A DNA stretch of 397 bases from the NCBI RefSeq assembly GCF_003334385.1, contig NZ_QOWN01000185.1. One strand, 5' to 3'. Both the position numbers and the translations under genes were made by a program. A model generated the notes under the pieces. That model was not told the origin of the DNA. It searched no databases and saw only the letters and a list, made by a program, of their open reading frames with translations. Below, piece after piece: positions 298-397 of this stretch (within the stretch, counting starts at the first letter, position 1; every line of letters begins with the position of its first letter). Source of the stretch: Escherichia coli. Its GTDB lineage: Bacteria > Pseudomonadota > Gammaproteobacteria > Enterobacterales > Enterobacteriaceae.

Positions 298-311
298 TAT
301 TTTTGTTATCC

Positions 312-316
312 GGAGA
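312..316 (+). promoter_or_regulatory. Putative Shine-Dalgarno for the downstream ORF
   Basis: GGAGA at 312-316, 4 nt upstream of ATG 321-323 (spacing on the short side) and 0 nt from an alternative ATG at 317-319. Confidence 0.35.
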
Positions 317-320
317 ATGC

Positions 321-397
321 ATGAAGAAATTACTGGTAACCGTAAAGCCTTTTCAGGGAACAATTCCGTTCCGTATTTTGCAGCGTGGTCGTGTTCT
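321..397 (+). CDS. Hypothetical protein, 3'-partial (N-terminal ~25 codons only); downstream of the spanin genes, probably co-transcribed
   Basis: ATG at 321 follows the GGAGA motif and opens a frame reading MKKLLVTVKPFQGTIPFRILQRGRV... with no stop before the window end. I do not recognise the product. Alternative readings exist: ATG 317 in another frame (MHEEITGNRKAFSGNNSVPYFAAWSCS...) and a minus-strand frame ending with a TAA whose complement is at 330-332. 77 nt is too little to choose by composition. Confidence 0.3.
   Translation, partial: MKKLLVTVKPFQGTIPFRILQRGRV

What the first reader, a model, noticed from the sequence alone, without database searches (positions are those of the whole stretch)
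298..397. Unidentified ORF start tightly following the spanin genes
Only 23 nt separate the Rz stop from an ATG with a GGAGA motif, and I find no intrinsic terminator in between, so whatever begins at 321 is probably expressed with the late lysis transcript. In lambda the gene after Rz is bor on the opposite strand, so a same-strand ORF here is a different arrangement, and such post-lysis slots in lambdoid prophages often hold accessory cargo. I cannot identify the product from 25 residues (MKKLLVTVKPFQGTIPFRILQRGRV), and the reading frame itself is uncertain.
Basis: inference. Interest (0 to 1): 0.4.

Follow-up and report, generated by a model that had tools for sequence, protein, structure and literature searches.

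The report
Small uncharacterised phage gene after spanins
The ORF that starts 23 bases after the Rz spanin gene is a real, already catalogued 74-codon gene of lambdoid (Shiga-toxin-type) prophages. It encodes a small all-beta protein of unknown function, so it is ordinary accessory cargo and not a new kind of element.

Summary
Rz ends at TAG 295-297, GGAG lies at 312-315 and the ATG at 321. The stated peptide is correct, and no terminator lies in the 23-nt gap.

In near-identical E. coli prophages the frame runs for 74 codons. RefSeq lists the product as WP_000735653.1, "hypothetical protein". It matches PHROG 2571 (function unknown) and nothing in Pfam, NCBIfam or PADLOC.

It is a real gene:
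- It is the only open frame in all diverged homologues.
- pN/pS is 0.2-0.4 over deep comparisons.
- AlphaFold2 gives a confident small beta-sandwich (pLDDT 90.5).
- It is present in 1140 of 5426 complete E. coli genomes.

Its G+C content is lower than that of its neighbours. In most relatives the Rz stop overlaps its start codon (ATGA), so expression with the late lysis transcript is likely, though this is inferred.

Relatives sit in several accessory slots: after the spanins, before the holin, in tail modules and in an early region. Outside this lineage they are usually followed by a conserved 68-72-aa partner gene (PHROG 4280). A linker-fused AlphaFold2 model suggests the two proteins bind each other. 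The window's lineage lacks the partner and evolves under weaker constraint.

Function is unknown. The best reading is a mobile, late-expressed accessory binding protein, not a lysis component. Interest is low.

The parts
1..297 (+). 3' part of the Rz (i-spanin) gene, with stop TAG at 295-297
   Evidence: Annotated 'lysis protein' or 'endopeptidase Rz' in near-identical records. Homologous genes carry Pfam PF03245 Phage_lysis.
50..235 (+). Rz1 (o-spanin) embedded in the +1 frame of Rz. It is 61 aa and has a lipoprotein-type N-terminus (..LVVSAC).
   Evidence: ORF list. The embedded Rz/Rz1 architecture is established knowledge and is described for Stx phages in PMC8136144.
298..320 (+). 23-nt spacer between the Rz stop and the ORF start, with no terminator-like site
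   Evidence: In the commonest variants the TAG is a sense codon. Rz then runs on for 9 codons to a TGA that overlaps the ATG.
312..316 (+). Shine-Dalgarno-like GGAG(A), 5 nt (4 nt counting the A) before the ATG
   Evidence: Seen directly in the sequence. The motif is conserved as GGAG or GGGG in diverged homologues.
321..397 (+). First 25 codons (plus 2 nt) of a 74-codon gene for a small soluble all-beta protein (RefSeq WP_000735653.1, PHROG 2571). The gene continues beyond the window.

Best explanation
Bases 321-397 are the 5' end of a genuine 74-codon protein-coding gene. Lambdoid, mostly Stx-type, prophages of E. coli carry it immediately after the Rz/Rz1 spanin genes.

Shown here:
- The product is an 8.3-kDa basic protein with no signal peptide and no hydrophobic segment.
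- AlphaFold2 confidently predicts a compact 7-stranded beta-sandwich.
- It belongs to PHROG 2571, a family of unknown function confined mainly to temperate phages of Enterobacterales.
- It behaves as mobile accessory cargo. Its G+C content is lower than that of its neighbours, it is present in only some phages that share the same Rz, and relatives occupy at least four different genomic slots.

Inferred:
- It has no promoter of its own. It is made from the Q-antiterminated late transcript together with the lysis genes, and in most variants it is translationally coupled to Rz through an ATGA overlap.
- It is not part of the lysis machinery. It most likely acts as a small cytoplasmic binding module.
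- Ancestrally it worked as one subunit of a two-protein cassette. Outside this lineage the gene is usually followed within 35-81 nt by a more conserved 68-72-aa gene (PHROG 4280), and a linker-fused model suggests the two products form a complex.
- The window's lineage has lost that partner. It evolves under weaker constraint yet stays intact, and has spread to about a fifth of complete E. coli genomes. It therefore either works alone or binds a different target.

The target and the benefit to the phage are unknown. My guess is a role in phage-host or phage-phage conflict.
For: Identity and extent:
- The window is 99.2% identical to L001, where the ORF is 74 codons and annotated as a hypothetical protein.
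- The exact protein is in the public collection in a 275-member cluster. The commonest variant was seen on at least 1000 contigs.

Coding:
- Frame +1 is the only open frame in nine diverged homologues.
- All 90 loci with this gene length keep it intact.
- Length differences among homologous proteins are whole-residue insertions or deletions, and the hydrophobic pattern alternates.
- dN/dS is 0.30-0.43 between deep pairs, and pN/pS is 0.21 within partner-linked relatives.
- The AlphaFold2 model has pLDDT 90.5 and pTM 0.76.
- AFDB50 returns the same fold only from uncharacterised Enterobacterales proteins.

Family: PHROG 2571 at E = 1.7e-27. Profile search finds 51 cluster representatives.

Accessory nature:
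- 26 of 408 phage records with this Rz have the ORF.
- Other phages have different content in the same slot.
- G+C is 45.8%, against 55.1% for Rz and 54-58% for the terminase genes.
- Relatives lie after the spanins, before the holin, in tail modules and in an early region.

Co-expression: there is no promoter-like or terminator-like site between Rz and the ORF. The ribosome-binding site is conserved and the ATGA overlap is common.

Partner:
- 55 of 80 viral loci found through the partner have a PHROG 2571 gene directly upstream. These give 45 distinct pairs.
- The fused model has pLDDT 83.5 and pTM 0.75, although 30 residues are disordered linker.
- A strong terminator follows the pair in L112.

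Prevalence: the solo form is in 1140 of 5426 complete E. coli genomes. This partner variant is in 32.
Against: - No expression or phenotype data were available, so co-transcription and translation are inferred.
- Within the window's own lineage, constraint is weak. Segregating sites split 8:8:8 by codon position. Two sub-lineages differ by 17 non-synonymous and 2 synonymous changes. This also fits a decaying orphan gene.
- The sample of 90 intact ORFs was retrieved by protein similarity, so it is biased towards intact copies.
- The heterodimer idea rests on one pTM value from a linker-fused model. No PAE or contact map was available.
- The partner is absent from this lineage, so the pairing may say little about what this copy does.
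Confidence: 0.75

Rival explanations
1. In this lineage the ORF is a functionless orphan. It is left over from a two-gene cassette (PHROG 2571 + PHROG 4280) after the partner was lost, and it still looks intact only because it is short and the loss was recent.
For: - The partner is absent from all window-lineage loci but present next to close (about 65% identical) and distant relatives.
- pN/pS rises from 0.21 in partner-linked relatives to 0.40 in the solo type, and to 1.4 between two solo sub-lineages.
- Polymorphic sites are spread evenly over codon positions.
Against: - The solo form is far more widespread in E. coli than the paired form: 1140 genomes against 32.
- No disrupted copy was seen among 90 loci, and 40 of 40 sampled genomes have an annotated CDS.
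- The ribosome-binding site and start are conserved.
- The within-solo pN/pS of 0.40 is still below 1.
Confidence: 0.2
2. It is an auxiliary lysis-module protein. In this reading the small beta-sandwich binds cell-wall or envelope glycans, or modulates the spanins or holin, and so tunes lysis. The proposed standalone SH3 protein of T1-like lysis cassettes would be the analogue.
For: - It lies immediately after Rz/Rz1 and is often translationally coupled to Rz.
- There is a precedent for a small standalone beta domain in a lysis module (PMC13164509).
Against: - It has no signal peptide, lipobox or membrane segment. The highest Kyte-Doolittle score over a 15-residue window is 0.8. It would therefore not reach the periplasm before lysis.
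- 382 of 408 phages with this same Rz lack it.
- Relatives also lie in tail modules, before the holin and in an early region, away from the spanins.
Confidence: 0.1
3. It is a virion-associated protein: a small FN3/Ig-like accessory or decoration subunit of the tail or head, made late with the structural proteins.
For: - It would be expressed late, just upstream of the terminase and head genes.
- Two family members give weak Pfam hits to FNIII-A_GpJ (best E = 0.028).
- In phage SaltyDalty a homologue sits between a gpI-like and a large tail protein gene.
- In a metagenomic phage the cassette lies inside the tail gene cluster.
Against: - The gene travels with unrelated packaging and head modules: lambda Nu1/gpA, HK97-like TerS/TerL with HNH, and Terminase_4. 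A virion component fitted to one capsid or tail would not be expected to do this.
- It also occurs in an early region next to ParDE and ERF.
- All matches to structural proteins are below significance.
Confidence: 0.08
4. It is not a gene at all. The open frame would be a chance ORF in the untranslated stretch between the lysis and packaging genes.
For: Many phage records leave it unannotated.
Against: - The frame is the only open one in homologues down to about 28% protein identity.
- dN/dS is below 0.45 at depth.
- The fold prediction is confident.
- Profile hits reach E = 1e-9 to 1e-4 in other genera, with the same length.
Confidence: 0.02

Closest known systems
RefSeq WP_000735653.1 / UniRef A0A0D6ZJZ6_ECOLX cluster, PHROG family phrog_2571 (function unknown)
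   Same: The 25 residues encoded in the window are identical to this protein. The full 74-aa product matches phrog_2571 at E = 1.7e-27.
   Different: There is no difference at sequence level. The PHROG profile is 291 positions long and is built around a 280-aa form that has extra N- and C-terminal regions (P0074). This protein is the bare central beta domain, profile positions 100-172.
Lambdoid-phage morons and post-lysis cargo such as lambda bor (concept from established knowledge of lambda and HK97 genomics)
   Same: It is an optional gene in the variable slot between Rz and the packaging genes, and its G+C content is lower than that of its neighbours. The next gene in L001, a TonB_C lipoprotein, looks like a classic moron with its own promoter-like site.
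   Different: bor is a lipoprotein gene on the opposite strand and is expressed in lysogens. This gene is on the late strand, has no lipobox or signal peptide, and has no promoter-like or terminator-like site of its own in this lineage. It should therefore be expressed in lytic growth, not in the lysogen.
Standalone SH3-domain protein of Drexlerviridae lysis cassettes (PMC13164509)
   Same: It is a small standalone beta-rich protein that is widespread but not universal next to lysis genes, and its function is proposed only from position and fold.
   Different: The fold and family differ. There is no Pfam hit, SH3 or otherwise, and no SH3 domain among the listed structural matches. Relatives of this gene are not restricted to lysis modules.
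Generic small beta-sandwich modules: the FNIII-A domain of lambda gpJ, CBM6/35/36 carbohydrate-binding modules and the LecB lectin

Membership tests
PHROG 2571 (phage protein family of unknown function) | Significant match to the family profile HMM | tested here: met
   E = 1.7e-27, 97.4 bits, residues 1-73 on profile positions 100-172. Distant relatives match the same segment.
Classic moron (autonomous transcription unit inserted in a phage operon) | Own promoter upstream of the gene | tested here: not met
   No sigma-70-like site lies in or near the 23-nt gap or in the 3' part of Rz. The only + strand site in L001 5600-7400 is at 6829-6856, upstream of the next gene. This was a consensus scan only.
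Classic moron (autonomous transcription unit inserted in a phage operon) | Own terminator downstream of the gene | tested here: not met
   None is predicted between L001 6545 and 6889. In partner-linked relatives a strong terminator does follow the two-gene cassette (L112 2738-2757).
Classic moron (autonomous transcription unit inserted in a phage operon) | Base composition different from the flanking phage genes, and patchy presence among related phages | tested here: met
   G+C is 45.8% and GC3 is 44%. Rz has 55.1% and 57.5%, and terL has 57.5% and 66%. The ORF is present in 26 of 408 phage records that share this Rz.
Spanin / lysis-cassette proteins (Rz, Rz1, holin, endolysin) | Membrane anchor, lipobox or signal sequence, or a match to lysis-protein families (for example PF03245) | tested here: not met
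   No Pfam or NCBIfam match. No hydrophobic segment, with a maximum Kyte-Doolittle score of 0.8 over 15 residues. The model is a soluble beta-sandwich.
Bor-type lipoprotein (the gene that follows Rz in lambda) | Opposite-strand gene encoding a lipoprotein with a lipobox | tested here: not met
   The gene is on the same strand as Rz. The N-terminus MKKLLVTVKPFQG has no lipobox cysteine and is predicted to be a beta-strand.
FN3/Ig-like domain of tail-tip protein J (Pfam PF24801 FNIII-A_GpJ) | Significant match to the Pfam profile or a clear structural match | tested here: inconclusive
Known anti-phage defence proteins (PADLOC-DB) | Match to a defence-system protein model | tested here: not met
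   No hit for the protein or for five of six relatives tested. One fusion protein gave a marginal ZorA hit at E = 0.006 that extends beyond this domain into the fused C-terminal region.
Known anti-defence proteins (Acb2, Tad1/2 and similar) | Sequence or fold similarity to a solved anti-defence protein | tested here: not met

The most novel reading that the evidence does not exclude
PHROG 2571 and PHROG 4280 together may form an uncharacterised two-protein phage accessory system. It would be a mobile cassette whose products make a heterodimer, with a fast-evolving beta-sandwich subunit and a slowly evolving alpha/beta subunit. It moves between accessory slots of temperate Enterobacterales phages and could act in counter-defence or in exclusion of rival phages. 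On this reading, the copy in the window is the beta-sandwich subunit that has been freed from its partner. It would be evolving under relaxed or diversifying selection, and it has spread with Stx-type prophages into about a fifth of E. coli genomes.
Probability: 0.25. Interest if true: 0.5.

Novelty: already known. Interest (0 to 1): 0.2.

Why it matters
As it stands this is routine. The gene is a catalogued hypothetical protein in a slot known to hold variable cargo, so the finding mainly confirms a correct gene call that many phage records omit. Fifteen Stx2c phage records and phage ASU11, for example, leave it unannotated.

It has modest value as a pointer. The gene is one of the commonest unexplained late genes of Stx-type prophages, present in 1140 of 5426 complete E. 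coli genomes. It has a confidently predicted fold with no characterised relative. In other phages it travels as a tight pair with a second unknown gene. A function in phage-host or phage-phage conflict would be of interest to people who study STEC prophage biology, but nothing here shows that.

Tried and rejected
Searches that gave nothing:
- Pfam on the protein and on 23 family members: no significant family.
- NCBIfam: nothing.
- PADLOC: nothing meaningful.
- Rfam at E <= 1 over L001 5700-7400: no RNA family. The prophage sRNA families held in Rfam are therefore excluded for this stretch.
- PDB sequence profile search: best E = 0.13.
- Foldseek against the PDB: best E = 0.3.
- AFDB50: only uncharacterised relatives.
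- Literature searches for the accession, the PHROG id and descriptions of the slot found nothing about this gene. The Stx-phage genomics paper PMC8136144 describes the S-R-Rz/Rz1 cassette but not this ORF.

Ideas rejected:
- A hidden terminator or structured RNA in 280-397. The fold z-score is +0.76, and the hairpin at 357-372 is no more than chance gives.
- The 106-codon antisense ORF at 43-363. It is interrupted by stops in L008, L003 and L005.
- The out-of-frame ATG at 317. It is not conserved.
- A partner-gene remnant in the 340 nt downstream in L001. There is no tblastn hit at E <= 1.
- A structured RNA in the conserved 194-nt downstream block (z = -0.45).
- Homology suggested by a profile hit to giant repeat adhesins (P0080). 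The hit covers only a 33-residue strand motif repeated 18 times in an Ig-repeat protein, so it was not treated as evidence of function.

Full report
**1. What is in the window**

The 397 bases contain the 3' part of an Rz i-spanin gene, with its stop (TAG) at 295-297. The Rz1 o-spanin gene is embedded in the +1 frame at 50-235. A 23-nt spacer follows, carrying GGAG at 312-315, and then an ATG at 321 whose frame is still open at the window's end. The consensus scan finds no terminator-like site in the spacer. The only one nearby is a 5-bp hairpin inside the ORF (window 357-372), which is within the number seen in shuffled sequence. The RNA fold of 280-397 is no more stable than shuffles (z = +0.76).

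**2. Extending the ORF**

The window matches part of 408 phage records and 4534 of 5426 complete E. coli genomes through its Rz portion. Only 26 phage records and 1208 genomes cover the part that holds the new ORF. In a 99.2%-identical chromosome (L001) the frame runs for 74 codons, at L001 6321-6545. PGAP calls the product WP_000735653.1, "hypothetical protein".

The gene order there is: holin, YdfR-family gene, lysozyme, antirepressor, small ORF, Rz, this ORF, 340 nt without a gene, a TonB_C lipoprotein gene, ynfO-like (opposite strand), HNH, terS, terL, capsid. Phage ASU11 and many Stx2c and Stx2a phage records contain the ORF but leave it unannotated.

**3. Is it a gene?**

Five lines of evidence say yes.
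- Frame +1 is the only frame free of stops in nine homologues. These range from identical down to roughly 26-30% protein identity.
- All 90 homologous loci of this type that I collected keep an intact 225-nt ORF. This sample was retrieved by protein similarity, so it is biased towards intact copies.
- PGAP annotates a CDS in all 40 genomes sampled evenly down the ranking.
- Nei-Gojobori dN/dS between deep pairs is 0.30-0.43.
- Length differences among homologous proteins are whole-residue insertions or deletions, and the residue pattern alternates as in beta-strands.

AlphaFold2 with a 23-sequence alignment gives a confident model (pLDDT 90.5, pTM 0.76) with seven strands and one short helix. 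The GGAG-type ribosome-binding site and the MK(K/R/Q)L start are conserved. The out-of-frame ATG at 317 is not. The antisense ORF at 43-363 is broken by stops in relatives.

**4. What family?**

The protein has no Pfam, NCBIfam or PADLOC match. It matches PHROG 2571, a family of unknown function, at E = 1.7e-27, on the central third of a 291-position profile.

The word-indexed search finds 66 clusters, nearly all E. coli or Salmonella and mostly 74 aa long. An exhaustive profile search finds 51 representatives. These include 72-81-aa proteins in other genera and a few longer proteins in which this domain is fused to other unknown regions. All public names are "hypothetical" or "uncharacterized".

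Structure searches give only generic beta-sandwich resemblance:
- Foldseek against the PDB: best E = 0.3.
- AFDB50: only uncharacterised Enterobacterales relatives.

Literature searches found nothing about this gene.

**5. Expression (inferred)**

No promoter-like or terminator-like site separates Rz from the ORF. In the commonest variants, the TAG at window 295-297 is a sense codon. Rz then continues for nine codons to a TGA that overlaps the ORF's ATG as ATGA, the usual signature of translational coupling. The window carries the variant with the earlier TAG and a 23-nt gap.

The gene is therefore most likely made from the Q-antiterminated late transcript. No expression data could be consulted.

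**6. Accessory character**

The slot after this Rz varies between phages. It is empty in VT1-Sakai, holds a Rha-family regulator gene in Lys8385Vzw, and holds this ORF in 26 records. Homology to VT1-Sakai stops at window position 302, so the ORF and its ribosome-binding site form the inserted unit.

The ORF's G+C content is 45.8%. Rz has 55.1%, the lysozyme gene 53.6% and terL 57.5%. The other inserted genes resemble the ORF: ant has 47.1% and the TonB_C gene 43.4%.

Relatives occupy several different places:
- after the spanins and before the terminase genes, the usual position, and with unrelated packaging modules;
- between the antiterminator and the holin;
- inside tail gene clusters. In phage SaltyDalty the homologue lies between a gpI-like and a large tail protein gene. 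In a metagenomic phage it lies between a DUF6246 gene that follows the Big_2 tail gene and a large (>1100-aa) unannotated gene;
- in an early region near ParDE, a kinase and ERF;
- next to an Acb2/Tad1-like gene and Nu1.

This spread argues against a dedicated lysis or virion role and for mobile cargo.

**7. A conserved partner elsewhere**

In Salmonella, mEp237, metagenomic and other loci, the PHROG 2571 gene is followed by a 68-72-aa gene of PHROG 4280, also of unknown function. The partner is 65% identical between loci in which the upstream proteins share only about 28%.

Starting from the partner, 55 of 80 viral loci have a PHROG 2571 gene ending 35-81 nt upstream on the same strand. I extracted 45 distinct pairs. 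A linker-fused AlphaFold2 model of the Salmonella pair gave pLDDT above 90 for both halves. Its pTM was 0.75, although 30 of 172 residues are disordered linker. That suggests a defined complex, but no PAE output was available. In L112 the pair ends with a strong intrinsic terminator.

The window's lineage lacks the partner altogether. Even so, it is the dominant form in E. coli: 1140 genomes, against 32 for the E. coli partner variant at megablast sensitivity.

**8. Selection**

| Comparison | pN/pS or counts |
|---|---|
| Among partner-linked relatives | 0.21 |
| Among solo-type copies | 0.40 |
| Between two solo sub-lineages, pooled | 1.4 |
| L001 against L008 | 17 non-synonymous, 2 synonymous |
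| Segregating sites in the close clade, by codon position | 8:8:8 |

Constraint is clearly weaker in the window's lineage. That fits either relaxed selection after partner loss or diversifying selection. With so few changes the two cannot be told apart.

**9. Verdict**

The feature is the start of an already catalogued small gene of unknown function, carried as late-strand accessory cargo after the spanins of Stx-type lambdoid prophages.

I favour a soluble binding module, ancestrally one half of a two-protein cassette, that acts in phage-host or phage-phage conflict. That functional step is inference.

Three rivals remain open at low probability: a functionless orphan remnant, an auxiliary lysis protein and a virion accessory protein. 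A chance ORF is effectively excluded. Novelty is "already known" and interest is low (0.2). The most novel reading not excluded is that the PHROG 2571/4280 pair is a new mobile two-protein accessory system.

Noticed in passing
window 124-126 (Rz codon); Rz1 codon 122-124: The window's Rz has Ser (AGC) where the 99%-identical L001 Rz has Cys (TGC). From memory, this position corresponds to one of the two periplasmic cysteines of lambda Rz. The same base change is synonymous (CCT to CCA, Pro) in the embedded Rz1 frame.
   Followed up: partly
window 295-324: The Rz stop is polymorphic. The window and L001 have TAG at 295-297. The commonest variants (for example L048 and L008) read through that codon for nine more codons to a TGA that overlaps the next gene's ATG (ATGA). 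This gives Rz a 9-residue C-terminal extension.
   Followed up: yes
L003 4265-4471; L011 4341-4559; L102 3306-3527; L104 4294-4512; L112 2501-2716: A conserved 68-72-aa gene of PHROG 4280 (unknown function; motif WVLGW.VVR..PWHL.GVYAT...YGSHRLGSDDF) directly follows PHROG 2571 genes in many phages. It evolves much more slowly than its upstream neighbour. It can also occur alone after spanins, as in L127 and L167.
   Followed up: partly
L001 6829-7215: The next gene downstream encodes a 108-aa lipoprotein with a TonB C-terminal domain. It has low G+C (43.4%) and its own promoter-like site at 6829-6856 with an extended -10 TG. It looks like a classic lysogen-expressed moron.
   Followed up: no
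L001 6546-6739: A 194-nt G+C-rich (58%) block with no annotated gene travels with the ORF in most loci, and there is a recombination breakpoint at its end. It has no Rfam match and no unusual folding (z = -0.45). Its role is unknown, and a packaging-site element was not tested.
   Followed up: partly
L005 3951-4000 (also L006 and L007): In these loci the ORF lies about 440 nt beyond the annotated Rz. It is still preceded by about 50 nt that resemble the 3' end of an Rz gene, as if a second truncated Rz end moved with the ORF. The partner gene there lacks its first 15 codons.
   Followed up: no
protein P0002 (125 aa) from a 1477-nt contig: In one assembly a DUF1737 (PF08410) protein is fused in frame to the 74-aa protein through the sequence ..AAEC-MKK.. 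In some prophages a DUF1737 gene therefore sits directly upstream in place of Rz, and the junction lies at the ribosome-binding site.
   Followed up: no
L111 131-1147: A 225-aa protein carrying the PHROG 2571 domain at its C-terminus (with PHROG 11851 at the N-terminus) is followed by an Acb2/Tad1-hairpin-family gene and then a Nu1-like terminase gene. A known counter-defence family therefore shares the same pre-terminase slot.
   Followed up: no
L103 2729-3261 (phage SaltyDalty): A 31%-identical homologue (88 aa) lies between a 90-aa gpI-like tail protein gene and a large tail protein gene, with start-stop overlap to the upstream gene.
   Followed up: partly
window 357-382: A GGAAC-N6-GTTCC hairpin followed by GTATTTTGCA lies inside codons 13-21 of the ORF. 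It fits a loose terminator pattern but is no more than chance gives. It overlaps the conserved GTIPFRIL peptide.
   Followed up: yes
protein P0017: One database variant reads MKKLRVNRRTFSGNNSVPYLQRGRV.. The segment FSGNNSVPY matches the +2-frame translation of codons 11-19 before the sequence returns to frame. This implies a pair of compensating frameshifts or a sequencing error.
   Followed up: no
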